Position numbers and translations under genes: made by a program. This document shows positions 1 through 41,634 of a DNA stretch of 48,012 bases, piece after piece (position 1 is the stretch's first letter; each line of letters opens with the position of its first letter). The DNA lies in the NCBI GenBank assembly GCA_050741875.1, contig JBOIGA010000002.1, positions 1 through 48,012 on the forward strand, in the 5' to 3' direction. This DNA is from Burkholderiales bacterium (GTDB lineage Bacteria > Pseudomonadota > Gammaproteobacteria > Burkholderiales > JBOIGA01). The notes under the pieces are model-generated. The model searched no databases, was not told where the DNA came from, and saw only the letters and a program-made list of their open reading frames with translations.

Positions 1-645
1 TGCGGGTACTCTTGCCATCGGGATGCTCCTCTCCGGTTGATCGATTCGAACGCTGCCAAACGTTCAAACCGAAGGATGCATCCCATCTCAAATTTCCAGC
101 AAGTCTAAGACATCACCCCCAAAAAATGGACTTCGAGGAAACCCTTCCAGTGCATCTCCCGCTTTTTCCCACGAGCGACGGAGACGATGAAACCTTAAGC
201 GATCGCCAGACGCTCTTTGCCGAATACGTGGATATGGCGAAGCTTCTACCGAAAGAAGACTAGCGTTTGGTTTTTCGTCGGTCCCGTCGTTCGGATCCGG
301 TGGCGCCGAGAGACTTGTGACGGTGAACCCCTAGAACATCGTCACCAAAATAGCCCGCCCTGAATCCTCGCGCGAAATCATTGCTTGCCCAGAGCAGTGT
401 TTTTGAAACCGGGATCCTCTGATTCCGAAAGAATTTTCCTTCGAGGAACCCCGGGATGTAGGTGAGGCTGGACGATTTCTGCTCCAGCGGTAATTGCGTT
501 CGATGCTTCATTGCCTGTTCTCTTGCGAATCACCGTGCAAATTGCGGGCCATAGTTGGGGGGATGAAGAACGAAAACTTTCTCGGGTTGCCTTACTTCTT
601 ACTGGAGAATTTTTGCTTTTCTCATCAGTAAGAAGGAGAGACACC

Positions 646-921
646 ATGAAGAAACAACGCAAAGTCGTGAGTGGTACGAACTATCAGACTGCTGGTCAGC
701 CGTACGAATCCGTGCCGAAGAAAAAGGGCGCGATTCTTACCGACGTTAAAGCAACCGATCACGAACACGATCGCGCTACGACCGAGGTCGCGCCATCACG
801 TCGCGATCAAGCCGACCCCGCAAGACGCAAATTGCGCCCGATGTGGGTGGTCATTCCGCTTGTTGTCATAGCGGTCTTGATGGCGGTGATTTGGGGCGGA
901 GCGTACCTAATCGGAAACTAG
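646..921 (+). CDS. small tail-anchored membrane protein, hypothetical (91 aa)
   Basis: ATG at 646 lies 5 nt after the SD AGAAGGAGAG. C-terminal hydrophobic helix WVVIPLVVIAVLMAVIWGGAYLI. No family recognised. Confidence 0.5.
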   Translation: MKKQRKVVSGTNYQTAGQPYESVPKKKGAILTDVKATDHEHDRATTEVAPSRRDQADPARRKLRPMWVVIPLVVIAVLMAVIWGGAYLIGN

Positions 922-1164
922 GCTTGCCAAGTCGAATCGCCGCCGCGATCCATCCCCAGAACGCAAGCGGCGCCGGCGGAGATAACCAGAAGCGGCGCGA
1001 GAAAAATGCCCGACGCCGGAACGAACGACGAGATCAGACGCCATGTAACTCGACAGATATTTTTTCGTGCAAGCGTCGGCTGACGCGAGACCGAATGCGC
1101 AGAGCGGCGTGATGGAAACAATGCATCGGTCGGCCGATGTCAGCATCGGCTTCATTTCAGTCTC

Positions 1165-1292
1165 AGGACTAAGGACTAAGGACTAAGAAAGAACAGAGGG
1201 GTGAATTTGCTTGTCTTATCTCATTCCTCAGTCCAGGGACCTCAGTCCTTTTGGTTTTTTTAACTCAGTCCTCAGCCCTAAAACCTCAGTCC
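1165..1292. repeat. 7-nt-period inverted arrays: (AGGACTA)x3 ... CCTCAGTCC, CTCAGTCC, ACTCAGTCCTCAGCCC, CCTCAGTCC, with internal T-run
   Basis: Read directly. Immediately 3' of the EF-hand gene stop at 1294..1296. TTTTGGTTTTTTTT follows the second right-arm unit. Confidence 0.9.
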
Positions 1293-1293
1293 T

Positions 1294-1815
1294 TTACTCA
1301 AATTTACGAAACGGCGGCGGCGAAGGTGCTGCACGCCCGGCCGCGCCCGGGCTTACGAGCGCACCACTCCATTCTTTCTGCGACAATCTGCCATCACCAT
1401 CGACGTCGAGACGGGTGAAAGTCTGATTATCGAGCAGAAGAGCTTCGCCGCGAGTGACAAAGCCGTCGGCATTCAAGTCCATGGACCGCCATTCGTCCCT
1501 GCCTGCCCGGTTGAAGCCTTGTTTGTTCGCCATCGAGGACACCGCGTCCCACTCTTTGCGTGAGATCTCTCCATCTGCGTTCAAATCCGCGTATGTCCAA
1601 GACCCCGGATCCATCGTCCGAGCTTCACGTTTGGTAACGAATCCGTTCTTGTTGACGTCTAGACGCTGCCACTCCCGTTCGCTGAAATAGGACGCTGCTG
1701 GCACAGGCGCCACTCCGCCGTCTTTCGAATACTCGGGAACAATCAAGTCGCCGCCGAAGGCCGGACTCCAACTCGCAACGAAGAGGGTCGCGGCGAAAAT
1801 TCGCGCAAGCTTCAT
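1294..1815 (-). CDS. secreted multi-EF-hand calcium-binding protein
   Basis: Signal peptide MKLARIFAATLFVASWSPAFG. Four canonical 12-residue EF loops (DVNKNGFVTKRE, DLNADGEISRKE, DLNADGFVTRGE, DVDGDGRLSQKE). SD AAAGGAGG upstream. Confidence 0.85.
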   Translation of the reverse strand: MKLARIFAATLFVASWSPAFGGDLIVPEYSKDGGVAPVPAASYFSEREWQRLDVNKNGFVTKREARTMDPGSWTYADLNADGEISRKEWDAVSSMANKQGFNRAGRDEWRSMDLNADGFVTRGEALLLDNQTFTRLDVDGDGRLSQKEWSGALVSPGAAGRAAPSPPPFRKFE

Positions 1816-1882
1816 CTTTTCCTCCTTTGCAATTGGCTGGCGCCAGAGTTACCGGTAGCGCCAACCATTTTCCACAGCCCTG

Positions 1883-2979: not shown

Positions 2980-3047
2980 GATGTTCTCCTCATTGAAGCG
3001 GGGAGCCTCGCCGACTGGCGCGATTTGCGCCAGCCGTTTTGAAATGC

Positions 3048-3461: not shown

Positions 3462-3671
3462 CTCTACACTCCTTTGATATTTTTGCTGGCAAAAGCGCCA
3501 GTTGACTTGTAAGGGAGCAATCGCCGTGCCACGGTGAATTTTTCCTAGAGGATCAATCTCCCTCTGAGCGCGCGCGGTGGATTCCTGTTGGGGCTTCCCA
3601 ACAGTAAAACTTACAAAGGGGATAAGCCAAAACTACTTTGGGATTTCTCTTGTCGCCCTCTGGCGACAGTC

Positions 3672-7876: not shown

Positions 7877-7886
7877 TTATCAAAAA

Positions 7887-7993
7887 AGGACTGAGCTTAG
7901 GGAAGGACTAAGGACTGAGGACTAAGGACTTAGTAAAAAGCAGAAGGCGAATCGGGTTTTTTCACTCAGTCCTCAGTCCTAGGCCCTCAGTCC
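7887..7993. repeat. 7-nt-period inverted arrays of the same GGACTRA family: AGGACTG..AGGACTA AGGACTG AGGACTA AGGACTT / CACTCAGTCCTCAGTCCTAGGCCCTCAGTCC
   Basis: Read directly. On the minus strand the hairpin ends in TTTTTTG, 10 nt before the hybrid kinase ATG (7876). Confidence 0.9.
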
Positions 7994-8119
7994 TTTTTAG
8001 CATTCTAACTCAACAGAAAAATCGAACATTCGTCCACTCCACGATCGCGTCCGGCGTCAGGTACGCGGAAAAAATCATCGCAAGGAGCGCGACGAGGACA
8101 AGCACGACGAAAGTTGGTT

Positions 8120-9325
8120 TCACGCGGGGAGCGCTCTCGCAAGCGGCCGCTCGTCAATCGGCCAGTTGAGAATCGCGGCAACGCCCGACAATACGATCGC
8201 GATTATCCAGACCGACTGATACGAGTCCGTGACATCAAACAACAAACCGCCGACCCAGGCGCCGAAAAAAGCGCCGGCTTGGTGAAACAAAAAGACGATT
8301 CCAAAAAGCATCGACAGGAATTTCACCCCAAAGACTTGTGCGACGATTCCGCTCGTCAACGGCACGGTTCCAAGCCAGAGCAATCCCATCACTGCGGCGA
8401 AAAAGTAAACCGAGGCTTCGCTCGCCGGCAAAGCCACGAAAGCCGCAATGGCAAAGCCTCTCAGCAAGTATAGACCCGAGAGCAATGTTTTCTTGCTTGC
8501 GCGGCCGCCCAGATATCCGCACGCCAACGTGCCGAAAATATTGAACAACCCGATCAATGCGAGCGCGGTCGCGCCAACGTGCGCCGGCATCGCGAGATCG
8601 GCGAGATACGCGGGAAGGTGGGTCGCGATGAAAACGATTTGAAAGCCGCAGACGAAAAAGCCGAATGAAAGCAGCCAGAATCCCGTGTGCGCTCTCGCTT
8701 CGGCGAGCGCCTGGCGGGGGGATTGGGTGCTCGCGTGTCGGGGGTTCCCGGCAAGCGCGCGCCCCAGAGGCGCTATCAATCCGGCGAGCGCGGCGAGAAT
8801 GAGGATGGACAAGAACCACCCCGTTGCCGAAATCGAAAACTGGATAGCGGGCAACATGGCGAACTGTCCGAATGAACCCGCCGCGCTGGCCAGCCCCAAC
8901 GCGAAGCTTCGATTCTCGGCGGGGACGTTTCTTGCGATTACGCCATAGACGACTGAGAACCCGGTTCCGGATAAGCCGATGCCGATCAGCAGTCCGGCGG
9001 AAAGCGAAAGCGCCATGCCGCTTTGCGACAATCCCATCAAGACCAGGCCGGCGAGATAACTGAGCGAACCAACGGCAATCACTCGTCCGCCGCCGTGACG
9101 GTCGGCGATCATTCCGGCGAAAGGCTGGAAAATTCCCCAGACGAGGTTTTGCAACGCTATCGCGAAAGCGAAAACTTCGCGCCCCCAGTTCAAGTCCGCG
9201 CTCATTGGCTGCAGGAAAAGCCCGAAGCTGTGGCGGATCCCCAGGCTCAACGTGAGAATGAGGCCGCCACACAGGACGATCGTTCGGAGGTTCGGCACGC
9301 AGTCAGGACGGGGGACTAAACTCAA
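8120..9325 (-). CDS. MFS transporter
   Basis: About 12 hydrophobic helices. MFS motif A-like GMIADRHGGGRV. Start uncertain (TTG at 9325 or GTG at 9298). Confidence 0.85.
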   Translation of the reverse strand: MSLVPRPDCVPNLRTIVLCGGLILTLSLGIRHSFGLFLQPMSADLNWGREVFAFAIALQNLVWGIFQPFAGMIADRHGGGRVIAVGSLSYLAGLVLMGLSQSGMALSLSAGLLIGIGLSGTGFSVVYGVIARNVPAENRSFALGLASAAGSFGQFAMLPAIQFSISATGWFLSILILAALAGLIAPLGRALAGNPRHASTQSPRQALAEARAHTGFWLLSFGFFVCGFQIVFIATHLPAYLADLAMPAHVGATALALIGLFNIFGTLACGYLGGRASKKTLLSGLYLLRGFAIAAFVALPASEASVYFFAAVMGLLWLGTVPLTSGIVAQVFGVKFLSMLFGIVFLFHQAGAFFGAWVGGLLFDVTDSYQSVWIIAIVLSGVAAILNWPIDERPLARALPA

Positions 9326-9345
9326 ACAAACTCGGTCCTGAGTCT

Positions 9346-9753
9346 CTATTCAATGGCCGGAAAATCGTGCGCGTACTTCAGAATCCATTCGCGCGCCGCT
9401 TCTTCTCCGCTCAGCTGCCGGCCTTCGCTTTCGCGGACCTCCTTGCGGTAGAGTTCGATGTGGCAAAGCTGCTCGACCATGCGCGTGAGAAAAAGATCGG
9501 ACTCGTCGAGAAACTGGATTCCGACGTCGTAATCGCCGTTGCGCTTTTTGCACCAGACGACTTTGCCCGTCGTTGCGAACGAGGGCGTGATCGTCGGCAC
9601 ACGTATTTGCACGACGGTGTCTTGCTCGAGAAACTCGTGCGATTCGCACGCGAGCCCGCCGAAACTGACGTTGCTCAAGCGTTCTCCGATCTCATGATCG
9701 TTGCGGGCGATTTCGATAGGGATGTCGGAAGGGTGTCTTAAGAAGGCGCGCAC
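9346..9753 (-). CDS. PilZ-domain protein (putative c-di-GMP receptor)
   Basis: RxxxR (RAFLR) near the N-terminus and the (D/N)xSxxG motif (NVSFGG). GTG start. Confidence 0.75.
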   Translation of the reverse strand: MRAFLRHPSDIPIEIARNDHEIGERLSNVSFGGLACESHEFLEQDTVVQIRVPTITPSFATTGKVVWCKKRNGDYDVGIQFLDESDLFLTRMVEQLCHIELYRKEVRESEGRQLSGEEAAREWILKYAHDFPAIE

Positions 9754-9756
9754 GAT

Positions 9757-9827
9757 GTGAACGGTGATCAGTGAACAGTTAACGGCTGCTCCATGTTCCT
9801 GTTCTGATGACCGTGCTCACTGTTGAC
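9757..9827. repeat. 7-nt-period inverted arrays GTGAACG GTGATCA GTGAACA GTTAACG / CCTGTTCTGATGACCGTGCTCACTGTTGAC
   Basis: Fills the 75-nt spacer between the hydrolase stop (9829) and the PilZ GTG (9753). Confidence 0.85.
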
Positions 9828-9828
9828 T

Positions 9829-10725
9829 TTAATCCAGCAAGAAATTTCTGACCGCCGCAATCTGATCGTCGGCCATGAGCATCGGCGCGTGGCCGACTCC
9901 CAAGAACTCGACGAGTTTAGCTTTCGGGCCGCGCGAGGTCATTTCGCGCGCGGTCTCGGCGAGAAGCAGGTCGGATTCCGCCCCGCGCATCACGAGTGTC
10001 GGGCAACTCACCTTGTCGTAGACGTTCCACAAAGCGATGTCGGTGAAAATTCCCTGGCGAAAGGGCGCGCCTATGGCGGGATCGTAAACGAATCCCCACG
10101 TTCCGTCGCGGTGTTGTTTGGCGCTGTGCAGCGCGAGGTGATTCCACTGCGGATCGGTCAACGGCCCAAAAGACGCTGAGTATTTTCGCATGGCGTCTTC
10201 GAGTTCCTTAAGCGAGGCGAAGCGCGGATCGCGTCCGACGTACTGTCCGATCCGGCGCAGCGAAGCGGCGGGAATAAGCGGCCCCACGTCGTTCAACACC
10301 AGCCGCCGAATAGGGCTTCCGGGCTGTGCCGCGAGCATCATGCCGATCAGGCCGCCCATCGAAGTCCCCACCCAGTCTATGACGGCTTTTGGCTTCTTGC
10401 GAAATAATCGTGCGATCCATCTTTTGAGCGTCGCTTTCACGCCGGTCACGCGGGCGATAAACGTTGTCATATCGGCGATGTAAAGCGGATAGCCGTAGTC
10501 TTCTGGCGAGCGCAGCCAGTCGCTCTTGCCTCTTCCGGCAACGTCGGGGCAGACAACACGGCACTCACGCGCGAGAACTTGGGCGAGGAAATCGAAGTCT
10601 CTCGCATTTCGGGTTAAACCGTGGACGCAGATGACGACGTGCGGATTATCGTGATCTCCCCAGTCGTAGTAGTTGAGTCTGTGAAAACCGTGCGGGCCGA
10701 GACACAAAATGTTTTCGGTTTTCAT
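9829..10725 (-). CDS. alpha/beta-fold hydrolase
   Basis: HG oxyanion motif (VICVHGL). Nucleophile elbow GTSMGG. C-terminal GHAP histidine region. Confidence 0.85.
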   Translation of the reverse strand: MKTENILCLGPHGFHRLNYYDWGDHDNPHVVICVHGLTRNARDFDFLAQVLARECRVVCPDVAGRGKSDWLRSPEDYGYPLYIADMTTFIARVTGVKATLKRWIARLFRKKPKAVIDWVGTSMGGLIGMMLAAQPGSPIRRLVLNDVGPLIPAASLRRIGQYVGRDPRFASLKELEDAMRKYSASFGPLTDPQWNHLALHSAKQHRDGTWGFVYDPAIGAPFRQGIFTDIALWNVYDKVSCPTLVMRGAESDLLLAETAREMTSRGPKAKLVEFLGVGHAPMLMADDQIAAVRNFLLD

Positions 10726-10743
10726 TTTGTGGATCGGCTCAGG

Positions 10744-10792
10744 TTTCAGCGGAGGCTAACCTGCGCATGCAGGTTAGGCCGGAGCCAAAACC
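10744..10792. repeat. 49-bp direct repeat, copy 1 (contains a 9-bp stem / 4-nt loop hairpin CTAACCTGC-GCAT-GCAGGTTAG)
   Basis: Identical to 10848..10896. Confidence 0.95.
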
Positions 10793-10847
10793 TAAACCCA
10801 GGCAAAGGATCGTCTCCTTTTTCATTCGCCGGCGACCGGCCGCACGC

Positions 10848-10896
10848 TTTCAGCGGAGGCTAACCTGCGCATGCAGGTTAGGCCGGAGCCAAAACC
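10848..10896. repeat. 49-bp direct repeat, copy 2
   Basis: Perfect copy of TTTCAGCGGAGGCTAACCTGCGCATGCAGGTTAGGCCGGAGCCAAAACC, 104 bp downstream of copy 1. Confidence 0.95.
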
Positions 10897-10991
10897 GCCA
10901 GGTTCGAGACAGAGAATGTTTTCCGAGTGCAAATTTTTGTTTTTTTGAGCGAAGAGCGGCGGATTTTACAGGAAAGTTTTGTGGGAAAGAT

Positions 10992-11020
10992 TTGTCTCTG
11001 GAACGAATGAGGACTAAAAT
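10992..11020 (+). promoter_or_regulatory. sigma70-like promoter of the suf operon (TTGTCT-N17-TAAAAT)
   Basis: -35 TTGTCT at 10992..10997, 17-nt spacer, -10 TAAAAT at 11015..11020, 43 nt upstream of the Rrf2 ATG. Confidence 0.5.
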
Positions 11021-11025
11021 AGTCC
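11011..11025. promoter_or_regulatory. IscR/Rrf2-type operator palindrome GGACTAAAATAGTCC
   Basis: Perfect 6-3-6 palindrome overlapping the -10. Its core GACTAAAATAGTC fits my recollection of the E. coli IscR type-1 core GACTRwwwYAGTC. Confidence 0.6.
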
Positions 11026-11031
11026 CATATT

Positions 11032-11063
11032 GAAAGGAGAACGGCGAGAAAGGAGAACGGCGA
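11032..11063 (+). repeat. perfect 16-bp x2 tandem duplication GAAAGGAGAACGGCGA covering the SD of the Rrf2 gene
   Basis: Copies at 11032..11047 and 11048..11063. The last base is the A of the ATG. Confidence 0.95.
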
Positions 11064-11509
11064 TGATGCGCATGAGCAAGCTGGCGGATTACAGCACGGT
11101 AGTGATGACGTATATGGCGCGTGATCCCGCGGCCTTGCATAGCGCACACGAAGTTTCGCAGAGAGTGAGAGTGGCGCTGCCGACGGTGAGCAAGATTTTC
11201 AAGATCCTGGCGAAAGAAGGGCTCGTGGTTTCGACTCGTGGCGTCAAAGGTGGTTATCTGTTGGCCAGAGCGCCGGAAAAAATCTCGATCGCCGAAATCA
11301 TTGACGCCGTGGAAGGTCGGATCTCGCTCACCGAATGCAGCCATCACGCGGGCTTGTGTGTGCAGGAAGCGCATTGCTCGGTGCGGGGTAACTGGCAACG
11401 AATCAACGCCGCGGTGCGCCGGGCTCTGGAGGGCGTCAGCCTCGCTGACATGTCCAGGCCAATAATGCGCAAAGTCGATGTCGCAGGCTTGAAGCGCGCG
11501 GCGGCTTAA
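11063..11509 (+). CDS. Rrf2-family Fe-S-sensing transcriptional regulator (IscR-like)
   Basis: N-terminal w[21 protein letters not shown]. Cys triad C-x6-C-x5-C ([14 protein letters not shown]). ATG at 11063 follows SD AAAGGAG. Confidence 0.85.
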
Positions 11510-11528
11510 GAAACTCAAGGGATTTGAC

Positions 11529-12963
<1,435 letters not shown>

Positions 12964-12965
<2 letters not shown>

Positions 12966-13012
12966 TTGAAGGATGAGGGATGAGGGATGAAAGATGAAGG
13001 ATGAAAAGAAAA
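12964..13012 (+). repeat. one-armed 7-nt-period array (GATTGAA GGATGAG GGATGAG GGATGAA AGATGAA GGATGAA) in the sufB-sufC spacer
   Basis: Read directly. ATGA recurs every 7 nt. Confidence 0.9.
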
Positions 13013-13014
13013 GC

Positions 13015-13767
13015 ATGCTGAGTATTAAAAATTTGCAAGTCGCTGTGGACGGCAAAGAGATCCTGCGCGGGATCGACTTGCGGGTGAACGCGGGCGAAGT
13101 GCACGCAATCATGGGTCCGAACGGATCGGGAAAAAGTACGCTCGCGCAGGTTTTGGCCGGGCGCGAAAGCTACGAAGTGACCGGCGGGAGCGTGACTTAT
13201 CAGGGGAATGATCTCCTCGCGCTTTCGCCCGAAGAGCGCGCGCACGACGGGGTTTTTCTCGCCTTCCAGTATCCGGTCGAAATCCCGGGAGTCTCCAATA
13301 TCTATCTTATGAAAGCCGCGCTCAACGCCAAGCGCAAGCACATGAATCTGCCCGAGCTCGACGCGATGGAGTTTTTGGCGCTCATCAAAGACAAGATGAA
13401 GCTCATGAATATGGGCGAGGAGTTGCTCTACCGCGCGGTGAACGAAGGTTTTTCGGGCGGCGAGAAGAAACGCAACGAGATTCTGCAAATGGCCGTGCTC
13501 GAACCCACGCTGGCGATCCTCGACGAAACCGATTCGGGCCTCGACATCGATGCCCTCAAGATCGTCGCGGACGGAGTCAATTCGTTGCGCGCCAAAGACC
13601 GGGCAATCGTCCTCGTCACGCATTATCAGCGGTTGCTGCACTACATCGTTCCCGATTTTGTGCACGTGCTTTCGGAAGGGCGGATCGCCAAATCGGGCGG
13701 CGCCGATCTCGCGCTTAAGCTCGAGGAAAAAGGTTACGGCTGGATCGAACAAGGAGCCCGCGCGTGA
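13015..13767 (+). CDS. sufC: Fe-S cluster assembly ATPase SufC
   Basis: Walker A GPNGSGKST. ABC signature FSGGEKKR. The N-terminus MLSIKNLQV matches the usual SufC start. An in-frame ATG at 12994 is an alternative. Confidence 0.93.
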   Translation: MLSIKNLQVAVDGKEILRGIDLRVNAGEVHAIMGPNGSGKSTLAQVLAGRESYEVTGGSVTYQGNDLLALSPEERAHDGVFLAFQYPVEIPGVSNIYLMKAALNAKRKHMNLPELDAMEFLALIKDKMKLMNMGEELLYRAVNEGFSGGEKKRNEILQMAVLEPTLAILDETDSGLDIDALKIVADGVNSLRAKDRAIVLVTHYQRLLHYIVPDFVHVLSEGRIAKSGGADLALKLEEKGYGWIEQGARA

Positions 13768-15035
13768 GCGAGCTTGCGACGCTTCCACCAAGCTCCTTGT
13801 CGTGGCTGCGGCGCGCACGCGAACGTGCCCGCGATAAGTTTGCGCGCCTCGGGTTTCCCACGACTCGCGACGAAGAGTGGAAGTACACCAATGTCGCGGC
13901 GCTCGCGAAACGCTCTTTCCCTCTCGCCCGAAGCTTGGAGAGCGCAATCGCGAGAGAACAGGTCCGGGCGTTGAGCTGCAGTGAGCTTCCCTGCCATCTC
14001 ATGGTTTTCGTCAATGGAAACTACGTCGCGGAGTTGTCGAATGCGCTCCCGGCTGAAGCGAAGTCTTTGGCGCAGGCATTGAAAGATGCACCCGAGACGG
14101 TCAAACCTTTTTTCGATGCCCAAACAGAAACCGCTTTCGACGCGCTCAATCTCGCTTTCGCGAGCGATGGCGCGGTTCTGCGTCTCCGCAAGGGCGTACA
14201 GGTCGAGCGGCCGATTTATCTCCTGTTTCTTTCGACCGACGAGGATCACGCGATTCATTCGCGCAATTTTATTGTCGCTGAAGAAGGCGCGCAGGCGACA
14301 GTGGTCGAACATCATTGCGGGCTGAACGGCGCCGCTTACTTCACCAACTCGGTAACGCGGATCGCGGTCGGGAAGAACGCGACGCTCAAACATTACAAGC
14401 TGCAGCAGGAAGGAATGAACGCTTTCCATATCGCGAGAATTGATTGCCGGCAGGAGCAGGGGAGCCGCTTCGACTCGCATTCCCTCGCTCTGGGAGCGAA
14501 GCTTTCGCGCAGCGAAATTCGCACTACCTTCGCGGGTGAGCATGGAGAAACCGCTTTCAACGGCTTGTATGTCGCCGGCGGCGACCAGCATATCGACCAT
14601 CAGACGCTCATCGACCATGCCGAGCCGGAGTGCGTGAGTCGGGAATTCTATCGCGGCGTGTTGAACGATTCGGCGCGGGCGGTGTTCAACGGTAAAGTGA
14701 TTGTGCGCGAAGGTGCGCAGAAAAGCGACGCGTCGCAGTCGAATCACAATCTTTTGCTGTCAAGGGAAGCCGAAGTGGACACGCGTCCCCAGCTCGAAAT
14801 CTATGCCGACGACGTCAAGTGCGCGCACGGGGCGACAGTCGGACAGTTGGATGCGGACATGATTTTTTACCTACGCTCGCGCGGCGTGCGCGAAGAGCTG
14901 GCGAAAGCGATACTCACTTACGCGTTCGCCCACGACATCCTCGGCCGTATCGAGCTTGAGCCGCTCAAACGCAAAGTCGCCGACGCCCTGATCGCGCGGT
15001 TGCCCGAGAGCGAACGCATCAAGGAATTCGTATGA
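13764..15035 (+). CDS. sufD: Fe-S cluster assembly protein SufD
   Basis: GTGA overlap with sufC. SD AAGGAG. C-terminal SufB/D beta-helix region ([22 protein letters not shown]). Confidence 0.9.
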
Positions 15036-16297
15036 GCGCTGAAATCAAGCCGATCATTGATTCGCGGAAGTGGGGCTCGACCGCAGTCGAGCACTGGCGC
15101 GCGGATTTCCCCGTGCTAGCCTCCAGGGTGCACGGCAAGCCGCTCGTTTACCTCGACAATGGCGCCACCACGCAAAAACCGCAGGCGGTGATAGACACCG
15201 TGACTGAATATTACCGGCATTACAACTCGAACATTCACCGCGGCGTGCATGCGCTGTCGCAGCGGGCCACCGAAGCCTACGAGAACGCGCGCGAGAAGGT
15301 GCGCGCGTTTCTGAACGCCGCGAATACCCGAGAGATCATTTTCGTGCGTGGCACGACCGAAGGCATTAACCTAGTCGCGCAGGCTTTTGGCCGGCCGCGG
15401 TTGAGTGCGGGAGACGAAATCCTGATCACTGCGATGGAGCACCATTCGAACATCGTTCCCTGGCAGCTTTTGTGTGAGCAGACCGGGGCAACGCTCAAAG
15501 TCGCTCCGATCAACGATTCCGGAGAGCTAATCCTTGACGAGTTCGAACGATTGCTGTCCGAGCGAACAAGGCTGGTCGCGCTGGTGCATGTGTCGAACGC
15601 GCTGGGCACAATCAATCCAGTGCGCAAGATGATCGCGGCGGCGCACGCGCGCGGAGTTCCAGTGCTGCTCGACGGCGCGCAGGCTGTCGCGCATCTCAAG
15701 GTTGACGTGCGCGAGCTCGACTGCGACTTCTACGCGTTCTCGGGCCACAAGGTGTTCGCGCCGACGGGAATCGGCGTGCTCTACGGAAAAGCGGATCTGC
15801 TGGAGCGGATGCCGCCCTGGCAGGGCGGCGGCGACATGATTTTGAGAGTGTCGTTCGCCAAGACCACTTACAACGCGCTGCCGTACAAGTTTGAAGCGGG
15901 GACACCCAACATTGCCGGCGCCATTGCGCTTGGCGCGGCTGTTGATTATATCGCGCGCACCGGCATCGAAGACATCGCGACGCACGAACACGACCTGCTT
16001 GTTTACGCGACGAACAGACTCGCGGAAATCCCCGGTTTGCGCATCATTGGCACCGCGAAGGACAAAGGCGCGATCCTGTCGTTCGTCATGGACGGCGCAC
16101 ATCCGCATGATATCGGTACGATCCTCGATCACGAAGGGATCGCGATCCGCGCTGGGCACCACTGCGCCATGCCGGTGATGGAAAGATTCGGCGTTCCGGC
16201 GACCGCGCGCGCGTCTTTCGCTCTCTACAACACCCGCGGCGAAGTGGATTCGCTCGTCGCAGGATTGCATCAGGTGCAAAAGCTTTTGGGCGTATGA
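15032..16297 (+). CDS. sufS: cysteine desulfurase SufS (class II)
   Basis: PLP-lysine region [16 protein letters not shown]. Catalytic Cys loop [13 protein letters not shown] overlap with sufD. Confidence 0.95.
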
Positions 16298-16737
16298 GCG
16301 ATCTGCGCGATCTATACCAGGAAGTCGTCTTCGACCACTACAAGAAGCCGCGCAACTTCGGTTGTCTTTCGAACGCCAATCGCAAGGCCGAGGGCGACAA
16401 TCCTTTGTGCGGGGACCGGATTACCGTGTACCTCCATATCGAGGACGGACTCGTCGCCGATGTGAGTTTTGAGGGTTCGGGTTGCGCGATCTCGACGGCT
16501 TCGGCTTCGCTCATGACCGAGGCGCTCAAGGGCAGAAGCGAAAGCGACGCGGCAAAACTCATCGAAAGTTTTCATGCGTCGCTCACCACTCCGGAAAAAG
16601 AGCGTGCGCAACTAGGCAAGCTCGAAGTTCTTCAAGGAGTGCGCGAATTTCCCGTCCGGGTAAAGTGCGCGACTCTCGCATGGCACACGGCGAACTCGGC
16701 TTTGAAAAATATCAAAGAGAAGGTGACGACAGAATGA
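16294..16737 (+). CDS. sufU: SufU / NifU-like sulfur-transfer protein
   Basis: Motifs [19 protein letters not shown] and [12 protein letters not shown] overlap with sufS. Confidence 0.85.
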
Positions 16738-17102
16738 GCGTTGAATGGAAAAACGTTTCGGACAATGAGGAGGGAAAGGAAGACGTGAAGGTCCCTCTTG
16801 AGCAGTTGCGGGAAAATATCATCCGCGCGCTGTCCACGATTTACGATCCCGAAATCCCGGTCAACATCTACGATCTCGGGTTGATTTACGATCTCGACGT
16901 GGACGCGCAAGGCAAAGTTGATGTGCGGATGACTCTGACCGCGCCGGGTTGTCCGGTCGCGCAAACTTTTCCGGGAACGGTTGAGCAGCAGCTCTACTCG
17001 GTTCCGGGCGTGACTGAGGCCAGGGTGGAATTGGTTTGGGACCCGCCATGGGACCGCGAGCGAATGAGCGAAGCGGCGAAGCTCGAGCTTGGAATGCTCT
17101 GA
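16734..17102 (+). CDS. sufT: DUF59 / SufT-type Fe-S assembly protein
   Basis: IYDPEIPVNIYDLGLIY...MTLTAPGCP is a typical DUF59 core. ATGA overlap with sufU. Confidence 0.85.
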   Translation: MSVEWKNVSDNEEGKEDVKVPLEQLRENIIRALSTIYDPEIPVNIYDLGLIYDLDVDAQGKVDVRMTLTAPGCPVAQTFPGTVEQQLYSVPGVTEARVELVWDPPWDRERMSEAAKLELGML

Positions 17103-17151
17103 CAAAAAGCGTGAGGGGTGAGGCCTGTCCTGAGCGAAGTCGAACGAAGCG

Positions 17152-17466
17152 ATGAGTGAGTGGTTGAACGTGGCAAAAGCCGACGACATCGAGCCCGGAA
17201 AGTGGCTAACGGCTGAAATCGGCAACACTTTCGTCGCCGTGTTCAATCTGAACGGCGAATACTTCGCGATCGAGGACGTCTGTACTCATGACGGCGGCGA
17301 TCTGGCTTCGGGCTGGCTCGAAGGAGAAGAAATCGTTTGTCCTCGCCACGGCGCGCGTTTTTGTGTGAAGACCGGCGAAGTGCGTTCTCCCCCGGCCTAC
17401 GAAGATGTGCAGGTGTTTCCGGTGAGAGTCGAGGACGGAACGGTTCAGGTTAAACGTGAAAAGTGA
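17152..17466 (+). CDS. Rieske [2Fe-2S] ferredoxin-like protein
   Basis: Rieske ligands CTHDGG ... CPRHGARF. Confidence 0.85.
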   Translation: MSEWLNVAKADDIEPGKWLTAEIGNTFVAVFNLNGEYFAIEDVCTHDGGDLASGWLEGEEIVCPRHGARFCVKTGEVRSPPAYEDVQVFPVRVEDGTVQVKREK

Positions 17467-17885
17467 AACGCGAAAATCTATCGCTGCCGGCCGCGTGTAG
17501 AGCTGAGATCGAAGCGTGGGCGAGCAAAGGCTACCCCAACGAGACCTGCGGGCTTTTGATCGGCGAAAGAAACGGCAGTGCGATCGAAGTGAAAGAGGTT
17601 GTCGCTGCGCGCAATCTCAACGGCGAGCGTGCAGCGGACCGCTTCGAGCTCGATCCCAAGGATTTTCTCGCGGCCGACGAGAAAGCGAGGCGCGACGGTC
17701 TCGAACTCGTCGGCTGCTGGCATTCGCATCCCGATCATCCGGCCCGTCCGAGTCCAACCGACCGCGAATTCGCCTGGCCGGGATGGTCATACATCATCGC
17801 TTCGGTCGGCCGCGATGGCGTGGCTGAACTGCGCTCGTTCTATTTCGACGCCGACCAGTTTTCGGAACAATTGATCGAACCATGA
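17463..17885 (+). CDS. mec: JAMM/MPN+ metalloprotease (Mec-like)
   Basis: ETCG glutamate motif and the JAMM motif HSHPDHPARPSPTD. GTGA overlap with the Rieske gene. Confidence 0.85.
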   Translation: MKRENLSLPAACRAEIEAWASKGYPNETCGLLIGERNGSAIEVKEVVAARNLNGERAADRFELDPKDFLAADEKARRDGLELVGCWHSHPDHPARPSPTDREFAWPGWSYIIASVGRDGVAELRSFYFDADQFSEQLIEP

Positions 17886-19321: not shown

Positions 19322-20268
19322 TGAAAGCGGAGACCTTCAATCTGAAGCACGGCTTGCTCGCGGCGATCGGCAACACTCCGCTCGTCGAAATAAAGCTCGC
19401 GGCAAAGAACGGCGTGCGCCTTTTCGCCAAGCTCGAGTCGGTGAATCCGGGCGGTTCGATCAAGGACCGCGCGGTCAAGCGAATGGTCACGAATGCGATT
19501 GCCGCGGGACGATTCGAAGGCGGCAGGAGGCTGCTCGATTCATCTTCGGGTAACGCCGGCATTTCATACGCGGCGCTCGGCGCCGCGCTCGGTGTTCCGG
19601 TGACGATCGTCGTTCCCGGCAACGCGAGCCGGGAGAGGCTCGAGCGCATCCGTTCGCACGGCGCTGAACTGATCATGACCGATCCGATCGAGGGATACGA
19701 TTTCGCTCTTCGCAGAGCGAAGCAGCTCGCACAAGAACGTCCCGAACTTTATTGGCATTGCGATCAATATGCGAACGAAGACAATGTTCGCGCGCATTAT
19801 GAGGAAACCGCGGGAGAGATTCTGGCGCAGGTCGCCGAAGCCGCTGGCGCCGCTCCCGACTGTTTCATCGCCGGAGTCGGCACCGGTGGAACGATCACCG
19901 GAGTGGGTCGGCGCTTGCGAGAAGCGAATCCGCAAGTTCACATTGCCGCGGTCATTCCCGAAACTTTTCCCGGAATCGAAGGTTTGAAGCCGCTCGGACA
20001 TCCGGGGGACATTGTCCCTGAGATTCTGGATGAGGCGCTGATCGACGAGCGTATTCCCGTGACGCTCGATCAAGCCTTGCAAGTATGCCGTGAGCTGACG
20101 AAGGAAGGCTTGTTCGTCGGCCCATCATCGGGAGCTTTCGTCTACGGGGCGATGAAAGTTGGCGCCGCCGACAAAAGACCGAGAACGCTTGTCACCGTGC
20201 TGTCGGACACGGGCGAACGTTACGTCTCGACCGGAATGTGGGGTCCAAAATCCGGGAATCGGCCATAG
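19321..20268 (+). CDS. cysM: PLP-dependent cysteine synthase, CysM/CysK family (CysO-dependent type by context)
   Basis: NPGGSIKDR PLP lysine and SSGNAG loop. TGATG junction with the E1 fusion. Confidence 0.85.
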   Translation: MKAETFNLKHGLLAAIGNTPLVEIKLAAKNGVRLFAKLESVNPGGSIKDRAVKRMVTNAIAAGRFEGGRRLLDSSSGNAGISYAALGAALGVPVTIVVPGNASRERLERIRSHGAELIMTDPIEGYDFALRRAKQLAQERPELYWHCDQYANEDNVRAHYEETAGEILAQVAEAAGAAPDCFIAGVGTGGTITGVGRRLREANPQVHIAAVIPETFPGIEGLKPLGHPGDIVPEILDEALIDERIPVTLDQALQVCRELTKEGLFVGPSSGAFVYGAMKVGAADKRPRTLVTVLSDTGERYVSTGMWGPKSGNRP

Positions 20269-20311
20269 GGGATCGGGAATCGGAAAGCCGAAACGAAAAC
20301 TCTCCGATCCC
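20253..20311. repeat. 7-nt-period array (CGGGAAT CGGCCAT AGGGGAT CGGGAAT CGGAAAG CCGAAAC) with inverted partner CCGATCCC
   Basis: The array spans the cysM TAG (20266..20268). 8-bp stem GGGATCGG/CCGATCCC. Sits between convergent genes. Confidence 0.8.
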
Positions 20312-20341
20312 GCTTACTTTCGACTATCGATACCCACGTTG

Positions 20342-20731: not shown

Positions 20732-20764
20732 TTTCATCTCCTTTGTGTTGGAGAAAAAACTGGC

Positions 20765-25850: not shown

Positions 25851-25916
25851 AGTCGCTAGTGGCTAGTCGCTAGTCTCGAGTAAAAATACTAGCGACTCAA
25901 AGTCCTAGCGACTAAC
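25851..25916. repeat. 7-nt-period array (AGTCGCT AGTGGCT AGTCGCT AGTCTCG) with inverted TAGCGACT x2
   Basis: Hairpin arms flank the loop TAAAAATAC. The right arm encodes the last codons and the TAG of the malQ::treY gene. Confidence 0.9.
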
Positions 25917-36597: not shown

Positions 36598-37050
36598 ATG
36601 GCCACGGTAGAACAATCCGTTGACGTCGCTTGTCCGGTGCGTACGGTTTACAACCAGTGGACGCAGTTCGAGGAATTTCCCCGCTTCATGGAAGGCGTTC
36701 GTGAGGTCACTCAACTCGACGAGACCCATCTTCGCTGGCGCGCGCAAGTCGGCGGCAAGGAAGAAACCTGGACCGCCGAGATAGACGAACAGATCCCGGA
36801 CAAGCGCATCGCGTGGCACAGCACGTCTGGCGCGAAGAACGCCGGGGTGGTTACCTTTCACCGTGTCGCGGACGACAGGACTCGCGTGATGGCGCAGTTC
36901 GATTACGAGCCGCAAGGAACGGTGGAAAAAGCCGGCAGCGCGGTCGGCCTCGACTCAGCGAGAGTCAAAGGCGACCTGCGGCGCTTCAAGGAATTCATCG
37001 AACAGCGCGCCAGTGAAACCGGGGCGTGGCGGGGGGAAGTAAAGGATTGA
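36598..37050 (+). CDS. SRPBCC (cyclase/dehydrase-like) family protein
   Basis: VYNQWTQFEEFPRFMEGV...W.A is typical of the family. SD GAGGAG before the ATG at 36598. Confidence 0.8.
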   Translation: MATVEQSVDVACPVRTVYNQWTQFEEFPRFMEGVREVTQLDETHLRWRAQVGGKEETWTAEIDEQIPDKRIAWHSTSGAKNAGVVTFHRVADDRTRVMAQFDYEPQGTVEKAGSAVGLDSARVKGDLRRFKEFIEQRASETGAWRGEVKD

Positions 37051-37116
37051 GGATTCGGGATCAAGGATTCAGTCAAACCGCTCGACTAAGCGTCCTGATT
37101 CCCGAATCCAGCTTTT
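37043..37116 (+). terminator. 7-nt-period array hairpin (AGGATTG AGGATTC GGGATCA AGGATTC / TCCTGATTCCCGAATCC) followed by a T-run
   Basis: The array starts on the last codons and TGA of the SRPBCC gene. About 16 bp can pair, with two bulges. AGCTTTT follows. Confidence 0.7.
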
Positions 37117-37201
37117 AAGAGGGTCGCGGCCTCGACTACGAAGGTAATAATAAGGAGCGCCGCGGCTCATTTTTTTGTAGCACCTTCACTGGAGAACAAC
37201 A

Positions 37202-39855: not shown

Positions 39856-39972
39856 GGTTGTCGATTTATGACTGAAGAACGGGCGCTGAATTCCCACAAA
39901 TGAAGGATTTAGGATTCAGAGAGCCTTCGCTTGAGTACAGCTCTAAACCGTATAAGCTCTCGGCAAACAGCA

Positions 39973-41367: not shown

Positions 41368-41634
41368 GGGTCTAGTTACCATCTCAGTGGTGCGAGTCTG
41401 GTAGACAGTTGGTTGGAAATTTGGTCCGCGAATGTAAGTTTTACATCGTCGGCTGACACGCTGTGAGAAGCTTCAGGCGCGGACGGCCCTACAGTCTCTT
41501 CGGTCGTCTGTCACCGGTCCTCAGTCATCTCTGTACTGGTTTCAGACGCAGCGTCGAAGGCAAGCCTTAGGCCGTCTGCTTTCTGTCATCCGTCCTCGGC
41601 CCTCTGAAGCCATGCTGCGCCGGGTGCTGCGCCA

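What the first reader, a model, noticed from the sequence alone, without database searches (positions are those of the whole stretch)
1165..1292. Window-wide class of intergenic heptanucleotide-period arrays forming hairpins, usually anchored on a stop codon, each locus with its own heptamer
At least seven clear intergenic spacers share one architecture but differ in sequence. A tandem array of 3-6 units with a strict 7-nt period is followed by a 10-40 nt spacer and then an inverted array of the complementary heptamer.

Clear loci:
- 1165-1292: AGGACTA
- 7887-7993: AGGACTR
- 9757-9827: GTGAACR
- 12964-13012: GGATGAR
- 20253-20311: CGGGAAT
- 25851-25916: AGTCGCT
- 37043-37116: AGGATTS

Weaker loci: 9305-9345, 17111-17152, 39886-39919, 41492-41604.

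The arrays begin on or within a few nt of the upstream stop codon. In F, G and H the stop is part of the array. Because both arms share the same period, the stem can pair in several registers.

In the arrays at 1165, 7887, 12964 and 25851 the unit carries TAA, TGA or TAG. Since 7 mod 3 = 1, three consecutive units place stops in all three frames within about 20 nt. The 9757 array also carries stop triplets, but its other two frames only terminate 50-60 nt downstream. The arrays at 20253 and 37043 do not do this, so a stop-trap role is at best partial.

Conserved architecture with locus-specific sequence argues against a classical REP/MITE copy family. It fits better with a structure-selected or slippage-generated terminator class. 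I do not recognise this as a described element type.
Basis: partly seen in the sequence, partly recalled or inferred. Interest (0 to 1): 0.75.

Follow-up and report, generated by a model that had tools for sequence, protein, structure and literature searches.

The report
Heptamer-repeat hairpins between bacterial genes
The 7-base tandem repeats sitting just behind genes, often with an inverted copy that makes a hairpin, are real and non-random. They belong to an already described but still unexplained class of bacterial heptanucleotide repeats, not to a new kind of element.

Summary
Period 7 is the only repeat period in this window that forms arrays of 3 or more copies above shuffle expectation, and 8 of 10 arrays lie in the 12% of the window that is intergenic. 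Five loci (1160-1293, 7882-7998, 9757-9827, 25851-25915, 37043-37109) fold into hairpins more stable than shuffles.

Several details fail:
- 12967-13005 has no inverted arm. In relatives it stays next to the sufC start, not the sufB stop.
- 20252-20312 is only a weak hairpin here.
- Three of the four "weaker loci" are not significant.
- "Each locus its own heptamer" is overstated. Loci A, B and G and the two units at 39904 fit RGGANTN, and locus E uses GGGAATC.

Relatives with 73-80% DNA identity keep the same unit at the same spacer for three loci, with whole-unit copy-number differences, and lack a fourth. This is microsatellite-like, vertically inherited evolution.

The class is known: heptanucleotide long SSRs (Mrazek 2007), cyanobacterial STRR, and Xanthomonas GGGAATC arrays, which also occur as convergent inverted pairs close behind ORFs. 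Their function is unresolved in the literature. A terminator role is plausible for three loci only and remains untested.

The parts
1165..1187 (.). Locus A, arm 1: (AGGACTA)x3.3 on the + strand. It is the 3' arm of the hairpin in minus-strand RNA.
   Evidence: TRF 100% match; coordinates.
1226..1293 (.). Locus A, complementary units (CCTCAGTCC, CCTCAGTCCT, ACTCAGTCCTCAGCCCTAAAACCTCAGTCCT). Read on the minus strand they are AGGACTG units that start 0 nt after the TAA of gene 1294-1815(-). A T4GGT7 run lies at 1250-1261.
   Evidence: Minus-strand fold -52.5 kcal/mol, z -4.2; plus strand z -0.9. The G-U versus A-C difference between the strands explains the asymmetry.
7882..7998 (.). Locus B: A6 + AGGACTGAGC, (AGGACTR)x4, a 29-nt loop, CACTCAGTCCTCAGTCCTAGGCCCTCAGTCC, then T5. 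It lies between the MFS gene stop (8120) and the histidine-kinase start (7876), both on the minus strand.
   Evidence: I3, I5, I18. z -5.6 (+) and -8.4 (-).
9303..9341 (-). Plain hairpin TCAGGAC...GTCCTGA in and around the PilZ-MFS spacer. It has a single AGGAC-type unit per arm and is not an array.
   Evidence: z -2.2 on + only. In relative L364 the spacer holds an unrelated GC hairpin.
9757..9827 (.). Locus C: GTGAACG GTGATCA GTGAACA GTTAACG plus the complementary arm. It fills the 75-nt spacer between the hydrolase stop (9829) and the PilZ start (9753), both on the minus strand.
   Evidence: TRF; z -2.1/-2.6. Absent from the orthologous 37-nt spacer of L364.
12967..13005 (+). Locus D: (RGGATGA)x5.6 with no inverted arm, in the sufB-sufC spacer. 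It ends 9 nt before the real sufC start (ATG 13015, MLSIKNLQV).
   Evidence: Relatives L364, L365, L366 and L368 keep the array with 2-4 units. In L366 about 170 nt are inserted between the sufB stop and the array, and the array stays at the sufC start.
20252..20312 (.). Locus E: GGGAATC/GGGGATC units that overlap the last codons and the TAG (20266-20268) of the PALP (CysK-like) gene, plus the 8-nt complement CCGATCCC. It lies between convergent genes.
   Evidence: z -0.7/-1.1. In L364 the same locus has 6 units, two complementary units and z -4.7/-3.3. The reading frame and the stop position differ between the two.
25851..25915 (.). Locus F: AGTCGCT AGTGGCT AGTCGCT AGTC, a 12-nt loop, then ACTAGCGACTCAAAGTCCTAGCGACTAA. 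The TAG of the MalQ-amylase gene (25905-25907, minus strand) lies inside the arm.
   Evidence: z -6.6/-5.4. P(MFE) 0.60.
37043..37109 (+). Locus G: AGGATTG AGGATTC GGGATCA AGGATTC, a loop, then GCGTCCTGATTCCCGAATCC, followed by AGCTTTT. The TGA of gene 36532-37050 lies at the junction of units 1 and 2.
   Evidence: z -2.9/-3.7. The 5' array is conserved in L370-L372 with one unit fewer and a decayed 3' arm (z +0.4). It is absent in L373/L374.
37154..37176 (+). Conventional intrinsic-terminator-like hairpin GGAGCGCCGCGGCTC + T7, downstream of locus G. It is not part of the class and is listed because it bears on the class's function.
   Evidence: A homologous GC hairpin + T6 is present in L373/L374, which lack the array.
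39904..39917 (+). Two units, AGGATTT AGGATTC, in the 33-nt divergent spacer GlgC/DUF72. This is a remnant or a seed.
   Evidence: no significant fold.
41500..41604 (-). Decayed AGGAC-type units (read on the minus strand) upstream of the hemerythrin gene, with no inverted partner.
   Evidence: TRF period 14, 1.9 copies; z -1.1 on the minus strand (-2.0 on the plus strand), with no array-to-array stem.

Best explanation
These are heptanucleotide simple-sequence repeats of the long-SSR / STRR kind. They arise and change length by slipped-strand mispairing in steps of one 7-nt unit, in the weakly constrained untranslated DNA directly behind genes. Where the seed was already a stem-loop, both arms expanded. 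The spacer then encodes a long hairpin whose 5' arm is purine-rich (RGGANTN-like in this lineage) and whose 3' arm is pyrimidine-rich on either strand.

Transcribed with the upstream gene, these hairpins most likely act as 3'-UTR or intercistronic stem-loops. They could be terminators where a U-run follows (A, B, G). Elsewhere they could be barriers to 3' exonucleases or processing sites, as REP elements are in E. coli operons. The unpaired array D is instead part of the sufC translation-initiation region.

Shown:
- the arrays exist, are non-random and are intergenic;
- they form hairpins;
- they abut stop codons;
- they are inherited at orthologous spacers and differ between relatives by whole units;
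- they are gained and lost.

Inferred:
- slippage as the generating process;
- that the arrays are transcribed;
- any effect on termination, mRNA stability or translation.

Not explained: why the step is 7 nt.
For: - Period 7 is the only period with arrays of 3 or more copies above shuffles.
- 8 of 10 arrays are intergenic.
- 7 of 22 spacers that contain a gene 3' end carry a clear array, against 0 of 3 divergent spacers.
- Hairpin z-scores run from -2 to -8.
- D, E and G are conserved at the same spacers, with the same unit and whole-unit differences, in relatives with 73-80% DNA identity. C is absent there, and L370/L371 carry three new arrays where this window has overlapping genes.
- In E both arms are longer in L364 and both shorter here.
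- In about 340 intergenic arrays from other genomes, 21% lie within 5 nt of a gene 3' end against 5% within 5 nt of a gene start.
- Array hairpins from other genomes lie in 14 convergent, 24 co-directional and 5 divergent spacers.
- Array-rich loci show period 7 far above all others (371 arrays, against 39, 32 and 27 for periods 6, 8 and 9).
- The literature describes the same picture for Xanthomonas, and most of those repeats are transcribed (PMC4692102).
Against: - A U-run follows only 3 of 6 hairpins here and 6 of 65 elsewhere.
- G has its own conventional terminator 45 nt downstream.
- In L370 the 5' array of G persists while the hairpin is lost (z +0.4). L370's triple array and locus D do not fold. 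The direct array, not the hairpin, may therefore be the conserved part.
- The sense strand does not fold significantly better than the antisense strand (15 vs 9, p = 0.27), so selection at the RNA level is not demonstrated.
- There are no transcript data.
- Slippage does not by itself explain the fixed 5'-purine polarity, the preference for CTGA/TGAA/CAGG inside units, or the number 7.
Confidence: 0.5

Rival explanations
1. The arrays are a pure mutational by-product. A lineage-specific replication or repair property makes 7-nt slippage frequent. Arrays accumulate wherever selection is weakest, which is behind stop codons, and pre-existing terminator stems seed complementary arrays in both arms. 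The arrays themselves do nothing.
For: - The distribution is sporadic and lineage-specific. Array density falls off in relatives: L364 has 2 arrays and L369 none over the region where this window has 4-5. Only a few of 80 betaproteobacterial loci show true arrays, for example Thiohalocapsa L358.
- Units are very diverse in other genomes, with 133 locus-distinct units.
- Hairpins wax and wane between relatives.
- There is no RNA-strand asymmetry.
- Mrazek's polymerase-slippage proposal is cited in PMC4679880 and PMC4692102.
Against: - The same unit is kept at D, E and G across a divergence at which neutral spacers should be unalignable.
- The 5'-purine / 3'-pyrimidine polarity is strict.
- Arrays are enriched exactly at stop codons, not spread through 3' spacers.
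- Unit composition is non-random.
Confidence: 0.3
2. The arrays are binding platforms for a single-strand nucleic-acid-binding protein with a 7-nt footprint, for example a cold-shock-domain protein (one monomer per heptamer), S1, or another RNA-binding protein. Binding would melt or lock the hairpin and so regulate read-through, mRNA decay or translation of the next gene.
For: - The strict 7-nt period is independent of sequence.
- The direct array is more conserved than the hairpin.
- Array D sits on a start region and its last unit plus the A-rich tract are conserved in four relatives.
- CspB binding one protein per heptamer, and the proposal that such proteins bind TAACTGA repeats, are in PMC4679880.
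- A Nostoc preprint reports expression effects of heptamer repeats and postulates a binding partner.
Against: - No binding protein is known.
- The units are too diverse for a sequence-specific binder.
- Nothing in this window links a csp-like gene to the arrays.
- The idea is entirely inferential.
Confidence: 0.1
3. At least the AGGACTR loci (A, B) are copies of a small dispersed or mobile element (MITE/REP-like) that also spreads between phyla.
For: - A and B share more than the unit: a T-run/[AC]ACTCAG junction, the same interrupted third unit (CTA...), four units, and 71% identity over the alignment.
- AGGACTG hairpins with the same TTTTCACTCAG junction and A-run/T-run flanks occur in Acidobacteria, Chloroflexi and other phyla.
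Against: - Much of the identity follows from sharing a repeated unit.
- The loops are unrelated, and no terminal inverted repeats or target-site duplications are seen.
- C, D, E and F use unrelated units.
- D, E and G are vertically inherited.
- Interrupted penultimate units are common in such arrays generally.
Confidence: 0.08
4. Stop trap: units are selected to carry TGA/TAA/TAG so that three units put a stop in every frame behind the gene.
For: - A, B, C, D and F carry stop triplets throughout their units, G only in its first unit.
- At E and G the ORF end has shifted between relatives and terminates on a stop supplied by the array.
- TGA is enriched in units from other genomes (36 vs 21 expected).
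Against: - There is no sense-strand bias for stop triplets in non-AGGACTR arrays next to stops (15 vs 13 of 28, expected 12.8).
- TAG is depleted and TAA is not enriched.
- GGGAATC and AGGATTC units lack stops.
- Any period that is not a multiple of 3 would serve, so 7 is not explained.
Confidence: 0.05
5. The arrays form G-quadruplexes, as proposed for the Xanthomonas and Nostoc G-rich heptamers.
For: Locus E uses the Xanthomonas unit GGGAATC/GGGGATC (PMC4692102).
Against: AGGACTR, AGGATTS, GGATGAR, GTGAACR and AGTCGCT have no GGG tracts. Even E has only three GGG runs in this window.
Confidence: 0.03

Closest known systems
Xanthomonas GGGAATC / (GGGANTN)n heptameric SSRs (Rehm et al. 2015, PMC4692102)
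   Same: - Arrays of 7-nt units, mostly about 4 units long.
- About 90% are intergenic.
- There are 70-75 pairs per genome in convergent inverted orientation that can form stem-loops.
- They lie on average 28 nt from the upstream ORF against 160 nt from the next one.
- They are under-represented between divergent genes.
- In related species they sit between the same genes, with length and sequence variation.
- Locus E uses exactly GGGAATC, and A, B and G fit RGGANTN.
   Different: - Several unrelated units coexist here (GTGAACR, AGTCGCT, GGATGAR).
- Most units have A rather than G at position 1 and cannot form G4.
- The host is an uncultured Burkholderiales-like MAG.
Heptanucleotide long simple sequence repeats (Mrazek, Guo & Shah 2007, as summarised in PMC4679880 and PMC4692102)
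   Same: - Tandem 7-nt units, longer than chance.
- The most abundant long-SSR class in many genomes.
- Sporadic phylogenetic distribution.
- Non-multiples of 3 are excluded from coding DNA.
- Slippage is the proposed origin.
   Different: As summarised in the two papers I could read, that work is a genome-wide census. It does not describe stop-codon anchoring, the fixed polarity of inverted pairs, or orthologous conservation.
Cyanobacterial STRR heptamers (Mazel et al. 1990; my own knowledge, cited in PMC4692102) and TAACTGA repeats of Beggiatoaceae, Cyanobacteria and Bacteroidetes (MacGregor 2015, PMC4679880)
   Same: - Intergenic tandem heptamers, 2-6 copies, with several unit families per genome.
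- The same unit occurs in distant phyla.
- TAACTGA arrays sit a few nt upstream of start codons, as locus D does.
- The shared CTGA core is enriched in my wider sample.
   Different: - The units differ.
- TAACTGA arrays are almost all direct repeats (one inverted case), whereas most loci here are inverted pairs behind stop codons.
REP/BIME elements and Rho-independent terminators
   Same: Intergenic or intercistronic stem-loops at gene 3' ends. B has an A-run / stem / T-run layout like a bidirectional terminator.
   Different: - There is no single conserved palindrome consensus.
- The stems are made of tandem 7-mers.
- The loops are 12-100 nt.
- A U-run is usually absent.
- No RAYT link was tested.

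Membership tests
Heptanucleotide long SSR (LSSR) | Head-to-tail copies of a 7-nt unit, in longer runs than chance gives in that sequence | tested here: met
   TRF 3.3-5.6 copies; 5 arrays against 0.37 in shuffles.
Heptanucleotide long SSR (LSSR) | Bias to non-coding DNA for units that are not multiples of 3 | tested here: met
   8 of 10 arrays lie in the 12% of the window that is intergenic.
Heptanucleotide long SSR (LSSR) | Copy number changes in whole units between related genomes | tested here: met
   D has 5.6 units here against 4.6, about 4 and about 3.5 in relatives. E has 4-5 against 6. G has 4 against 3. No difference was seen between near-identical assemblies apart from a 1-nt indel.
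Xanthomonas-type GGGANTN arrays | Unit consensus GGGANTN (positions 1-4 and 6 conserved) | tested here: inconclusive
   E matches exactly. A, B, G and the 39904 units match RGGANTN with A at position 1. C, D and F do not match.
Xanthomonas-type GGGANTN arrays | Frequent convergent inverted pairs close behind the upstream ORF | tested here: met
   A, B, C, E, F and G are inverted pairs with a purine-rich 5' arm. Five abut or contain a stop codon.
Xanthomonas-type GGGANTN arrays | G-quadruplex potential (4 or more GGG tracts) | tested here: not met
   No locus in the window has four GGG tracts.
Rho-independent terminator | GC-rich stem, short loop, and a U-run directly after the 3' arm | tested here: inconclusive
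   T-runs follow A, B and G but not C, E or F. Loops are 12-100 nt. The consensus scan finds no excess over shuffles and picks up only a sub-hairpin of A. Only 6 of 65 hairpins have a T4 run in other genomes.
Rho-independent terminator | Transcript 3' ends map to the U-run | not testable with these tools
   No RNA data are available.
REP/BIME or MITE dispersed repeat | Many copies of one conserved sequence, including loop and flanks; TIR/TSD for MITEs | tested here: not met
   The units differ between loci. A and B are 71% identical but their loops are unrelated. D, E and G are orthologous in relatives.
REP/BIME or MITE dispersed repeat | Associated RAYT or transposase in the genome | not tested
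   Only 48 kb of the genome was available. Not every ORF was scanned (20 went through Pfam); among those and the genes called on L081 none is a transposase.
Cyanobacterial STRR | Units CCCCAGT / TTGGTCA / CAACAGT in a cyanobacterial genome | tested here: not met
   The units differ, although C's arm contains ACTGTTG, the complement of CAACAGT. The host is Burkholderiales-like.
Known RNA families (Rfam) | Match at gathering score | tested here: not met
   0 matches in the window.

The most novel reading that the evidence does not exclude
Heptad-periodic hairpins with a fixed purine-5'/pyrimidine-3' polarity are a functional element class shared across phyla. The AGGACTG type recurs with the same junctions in Acidobacteria, Chloroflexi, Cyanobacteria, Bacteroidota and this Burkholderiales-like MAG. 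On this reading the class is generated or read by a dedicated factor with a 7-nt step or footprint, for example a cold-shock-domain-type single-strand binder or a specialised polymerase or repair activity. That factor would set mRNA 3'-end fate or the coupling between adjacent cistrons.
Probability: 0.12. Interest if true: 0.7.

Novelty: new member of a known kind. Interest (0 to 1): 0.35.

Why it matters
Intergenic heptamer repeats have been noted since 1990, and since 2007 as the commonest long SSR class in many bacteria. Neither the reason for the number 7 nor any function is established.

This window adds a clean case outside cyanobacteria and Xanthomonas, with:
- several unit families side by side;
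- a fixed arm polarity;
- stop codons embedded in arrays;
- orthologous loci in relatives that show unit-wise gain and loss, and shifting ORF ends.

If the hairpins control termination or mRNA stability, gene 3' ends in such genomes would be tunable by slippage. Practically, the arrays may also break short-read assemblies, because several relatives' contigs end within a few hundred nt behind them.

Tried and rejected
- Rfam at gathering threshold gave no match, and no tRNA or tmRNA was found.
- Three genome-contig scans, with SufB, the MFS transporter and MalQ-amylase, found no close relative (best 84%, 62% and 56% identity). Relatives came instead from the protein search plus contig look-ups.
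- One look-up returned no DNA because the JGI file was too large.
- The consensus terminator scan equals its shuffles and is blind to long loops.
- Stop-trap: the sense versus antisense test was negative for non-AGGACTR units.
- RNA-level selection via G-U strand asymmetry was not significant.
- Multi-register pairing: the ensembles are dominated by one register.
- U-run after the 3' arm is rare in the wider sample.
- A common RGGANTN consensus for all heptamer arrays holds within this lineage but is only weakly enriched elsewhere (10 vs 4.9 of 133).
- A literature search for tandem AGGACTG strings found nothing relevant.
- G-quadruplex was rejected on sequence.
- CRISPR, iterons and a telomere-like origin were considered and dropped: the arrays are short, the units vary, and there are no associated genes.
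Full report
**What is in the sequence**

Tandem Repeats Finder lists period-7 arrays of 3.3 to 5.6 copies at 1165, 1264, 7903, 7965, 9757, 12967 and 25851. Apart from a 4.1-copy period-9 array inside a gene at 43233, every other row is a 2- to 2.8-copy repeat.

A lag-match scan of my own gives 5 strict period-7 arrays against 0.37 in dinucleotide shuffles. No other period from 7 to 15 stands out. With a relaxed threshold, 8 of 10 arrays fall in the 12% of the window that lies outside long ORFs. That is about 167 per Mb, against 5.8 per Mb in 1.5 Mb of control loci fetched for an unrelated reason, mostly Pseudomonas. The double unit RGGANTNRGGANT occurs 8 times against 0.09 expected.

The arrays are not assembly artefacts. 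Two other assemblies of the same organism carry them unchanged except for a 1-nt deletion at 7910. These are NCBI GCA_975254255.1 and a Logan assembly of SRR27067746.

**Hairpins**

I folded each locus on both strands against 100 dinucleotide shuffles.

| Locus | Coordinates | z, + strand | z, - strand |
|---|---|---|---|
| A | 1155-1300 | -0.9 | -4.2 |
| B | 7877-8005 | -5.6 | -8.4 |
| C | 9750-9832 | -2.1 | -2.6 |
| F | 25845-25915 | -6.6 | -5.4 |
| G | 37040-37125 | -2.9 | -3.7 |
| E | 20245-20320 | -0.7 | -1.1 |

- In A, AGGACUG pairs with UAGUCCU through G-U on the minus strand, whereas the plus strand has A-C mismatches. That explains the asymmetry.
- E is only a single 8-bp stem.
- D (12960-13000) does not fold at all and has no inverted arm.
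- Of the four "weaker loci", 9303-9341 is an ordinary hairpin (z -2.2) with one AGGAC-like unit per arm. 17111, 39886 and 41492 are two-unit or decayed remnants without a significant fold.
- Partition-function folding shows one dominant register at every locus. The idea that the stems slide between registers is possible on paper but not predicted to happen.

**Gene context**

I combined Pfam scans, the genes called on the sister contig and codon-position GC.

- A starts 0 nt after the TAA of the EF-hand gene 1294-1815(-) and lies between convergent genes.
- B lies between the MFS stop (8120) and the histidine-kinase start (7876). It is 126 nt from the stop and 7 nt from the start.
- C fills the 75-nt spacer between the hydrolase stop and the PilZ start.
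- E contains the TAG of the CysK-like gene and lies between convergent genes.
- F contains the TAG of the 1664-aa MalQ-amylase gene.
- G contains the TGA of gene 36532-37050.
- Altogether 7 of 22 spacers that hold a gene 3' end carry a clear array. None of the 3 divergent spacers does. One of those has two AGGATT units.
- Other 3' spacers carry ordinary GC-rich hairpins, for example 37835-37860 and 42311-42344.

**Units**

A and B use AGGACTR, G and 39904 use AGGATTS, and E uses GGGAATC/GGGGATC. All of these fit RGGANTN, which is the Xanthomonas consensus GGGANTN with a purine at position 1. D is RGGATGA. Only C (GTGAACR) and F (AGTCGCT) are unrelated.

**Relatives**

The organism is an uncultured bacterium whose SufB is 85-87% identical to betaproteobacterial (Burkholderiales) proteins. 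Five metagenomic proteins are 91-93% identical.

- **L364.** This contig carries a SufB 92% identical and is syntenic with window 8119-22693 at 73-80% DNA identity.
- **Locus D.** L364, L365, L366 and L368 all carry the GGATGAR array in front of sufC, with 2 to 4 units instead of 5.6. In L366 about 170 nt have been inserted between the sufB stop and the array, and the array stays with the sufC start. The last unit plus the A-rich tract (GAAGGATGAARAGAAA...ATG) is conserved in all four. The true sufC start is ATG 13015 (MLSIKNLQV, as in other SufC proteins). So D belongs to the start region of sufC, not to the stop of sufB.
- **Locus E.** L364 has six GGGRATM units and two complementary units, and a strong hairpin (z -4.7/-3.3). 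The CysK-like ORF ends in a different frame, on a different TAG of the array.
- **Locus C.** It is absent. The orthologous spacer is 37 nt of unrelated sequence.
- **Locus G.** Three contigs whose protein is 84% identical keep (T)AGGATTC AGGATCA AGGATTC, one unit fewer, with the stop now at the first TAG. Their 3' arm is decayed and there is no significant hairpin (z +0.4). Two contigs at 76% have no array but keep the conventional GC hairpin plus T-run, which this window also has at 37154-37176.
- **A new site.** L370/L371 show three different arrays in a row (GGAATAG, ACCCGAT, TCATCCT) in a 125-nt spacer where the window has overlapping genes.

The loci are therefore inherited vertically, keep their unit, change by whole units, and are gained and lost. 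The direct array outlives the hairpin.

**The wider picture**

About 4 would be expected by chance (my calculation). The hits come from Acidobacteriota, Chloroflexota, Cyanobacteriota, Bacteroidota, Gemmatimonadota and several proteobacterial classes, often as inverted pairs. Many share the window's layout, down to the TTTTCACTCAG junction and the A-run/T-run flanks.

- **Periods.** In those loci TRF finds 371 period-7 arrays of 3 or more copies, against 39, 32 and 27 for periods 6, 8 and 9. There are 149 different canonical units.
- **Unit diversity.** Arrays more than 300 nt from any AGGACTR array are highly diverse. RGGANTN occurs in only 10 of 133, against 4.9 expected.
- **Unit composition.** Units do show an excess of CTGA, TGAA and CAGG (z 6-7.5). 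TAG is depleted.
- **Polarity.** In inverted pairs the 5' arm is the purine-rich, TGA-bearing one: TGA in 32 of 57 5' arms against 8 of 65 3' arms. Most of these pairs are AGGACTG-type.
- **Position.** 21% of intergenic arrays lie within 5 nt of a gene 3' end, against 5% within 5 nt of a gene start. Hairpins lie in 14 convergent, 24 co-directional and 5 divergent spacers.
- **Independent sample.** Among 80 unrelated sufB loci, several carry short-period arrays directly after the sufB stop (period 7 in L071, L059 and L037; 8, 11 and about 15 in others). Two of them, L059 and L024, have inverted partners.
- **Distribution.** Among 80 mostly betaproteobacterial MalQ loci, only a few genomes show true arrays, for example Thiohalocapsa L358. 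The trait is sporadic.

**Tests of function**

- **Terminator.** T-runs follow A, B and G only. In the wider sample 6 of 65 3' arms are followed by T4. G has a separate conventional terminator. The consensus terminator scan is uninformative.
- **Stop trap.** For arrays abutting stops and unlike AGGACTR, stop triplets occur in 15 of 28 sense units and 13 of 28 antisense units, against 12.8 expected. E and G show anecdotally that a shifted ORF end lands on a stop provided by the array. This reads as a consequence, not a selected role.
- **RNA-level selection.** The sense strand folds better in 15 of 24 co-directional cases (p = 0.27). This is not demonstrated.
- **G-quadruplex.** It is excluded by sequence for all loci but E.

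**Comparison with what is known**

- Mrazek and colleagues (2007) found heptanucleotide repeats to be the most abundant long SSR class in most genomes rich in 5-11-nt repeats. They proposed polymerase slippage with a 7-nt contact. I take this from the summaries in PMC4679880 and PMC4692102.
- Rehm et al. describe about 185 GGGAATC/(GGGANTN)n arrays per Xanthomonas genome. Most have four units and about 90% are intergenic. There are 70-75 convergent inverted pairs able to form stem-loops. Arrays lie on average 28 nt from the upstream ORF. [quoted passage not shown] No function was found.
- MacGregor describes TAACTGA arrays directly upstream of start codons in Beggiatoaceae, cyanobacteria and Bacteroidetes. 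She suggests S1, Csp or CsrA-type binders.
- I found no paper with tandem AGGACTG.

The window therefore holds a new member of a known kind. There are Xanthomonas-type convergent pairs behind ORFs (A, B, C, E, F, G) and one start-proximal direct array of the Beggiatoa/Nostoc type (D).

**Verdict**

The reading as a slippage-shaped, non-MITE class is supported. The terminator role is plausible for three loci and untested. The claim of an undescribed element type is not correct.

My best explanation (confidence 0.5) is that these are 7-nt slippage repeats seeded in 3' spacers and stem-loops, giving 3'-UTR or intercistronic hairpins with REP-like or terminator-like effects, with D acting in sufC translation initiation. 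The main rival (0.3) is that they are functionless by-products of a lineage-specific slippage bias.

The unexplained points could hide a real mechanism. They are the step of exactly 7, the fixed arm polarity, the CTGA-type unit bias, and the recurrence of AGGACTG hairpins across phyla. They justify moderate interest.

Noticed in passing
window 10745-10795 and 10849-10899 (palindromes at 10756-10777 and 10860-10881): A roughly 50-nt sequence is duplicated 104 nt apart in the divergent spacer between the hydrolase gene and the Rrf2/suf operon. Each copy holds the perfect 22-nt palindrome CTAACCTGCGCATGCAGGTTAG. The relative L364 has only a 103-nt spacer without it. It may be a regulator-binding site or a small inserted element.
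   Followed up: partly
window 11011-11025: The hairpin GGACTAAAATAGTCC upstream of the Rrf2 gene is conserved exactly in relative L364. It is likely the operator of the Rrf2/IscR-type repressor of the suf operon.
   Followed up: partly
window 11032-11063: A perfect tandem duplication of GAAAGGAGAACGGCGA ends 2 nt before the Rrf2 start codon, which doubles the Shine-Dalgarno-like GGAG.
   Followed up: no
window 1816-1882, 2980-3047, 3462-3671, 20686-20865, 35717-36007: Short palindromes built on CTGGCGC...GCGCCAG recur in spacers next to small hypothetical genes. This is a second, unrelated family of intergenic hairpins or a shared operator. The spacing does not fit a sigma-54 promoter.
   Followed up: no
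window 33094-33154: A perfect 30-nt tandem duplication (10 codons) lies inside the 730-aa glycosidase-like gene 32730-34922(-).
   Followed up: no
window 1-1290: The first 1.3 kb has lower GC (54%) and only short ORFs without Pfam matches. It is possibly a non-coding or degraded region next to locus A.
   Followed up: no
L370, L371, L372, L373, L374 (ends of contigs): All five relatives' contigs that carry the gene orthologous to 36532-37050 end 79-700 nt behind it. Two of them (L373, L374) lack the array, so whether the arrays break short-read assemblies is unclear.
   Followed up: no
L210 5300-5500 (Anaerolineaceae MAG): Nested arrays: AGGACTG arms enclose further heptamer arrays (GGCGATA x5 and CCTCCCT x7) and a GC hairpin, all within one 200-nt spacer.
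   Followed up: no
L024 from 4434 onwards (Syntrophobacteraceae), L027 from 4431 onwards (Verrucomicrobiales): The sufB-sufC spacers of unrelated phyla carry tandem arrays of period 8 (with an inverted array) and period 11 directly after the sufB stop. Stop-proximal short-period arrays are therefore not strictly limited to period 7.
   Followed up: partly
window 8120-9325 and 25905-30899: The MFS transporter is about 60% identical to Pseudomonas proteins. The 1664-aa MalQ-amylase fusion has no relative above 56% identity in the species-representative genomes. The lineage is poorly represented in reference collections.
   Followed up: partly
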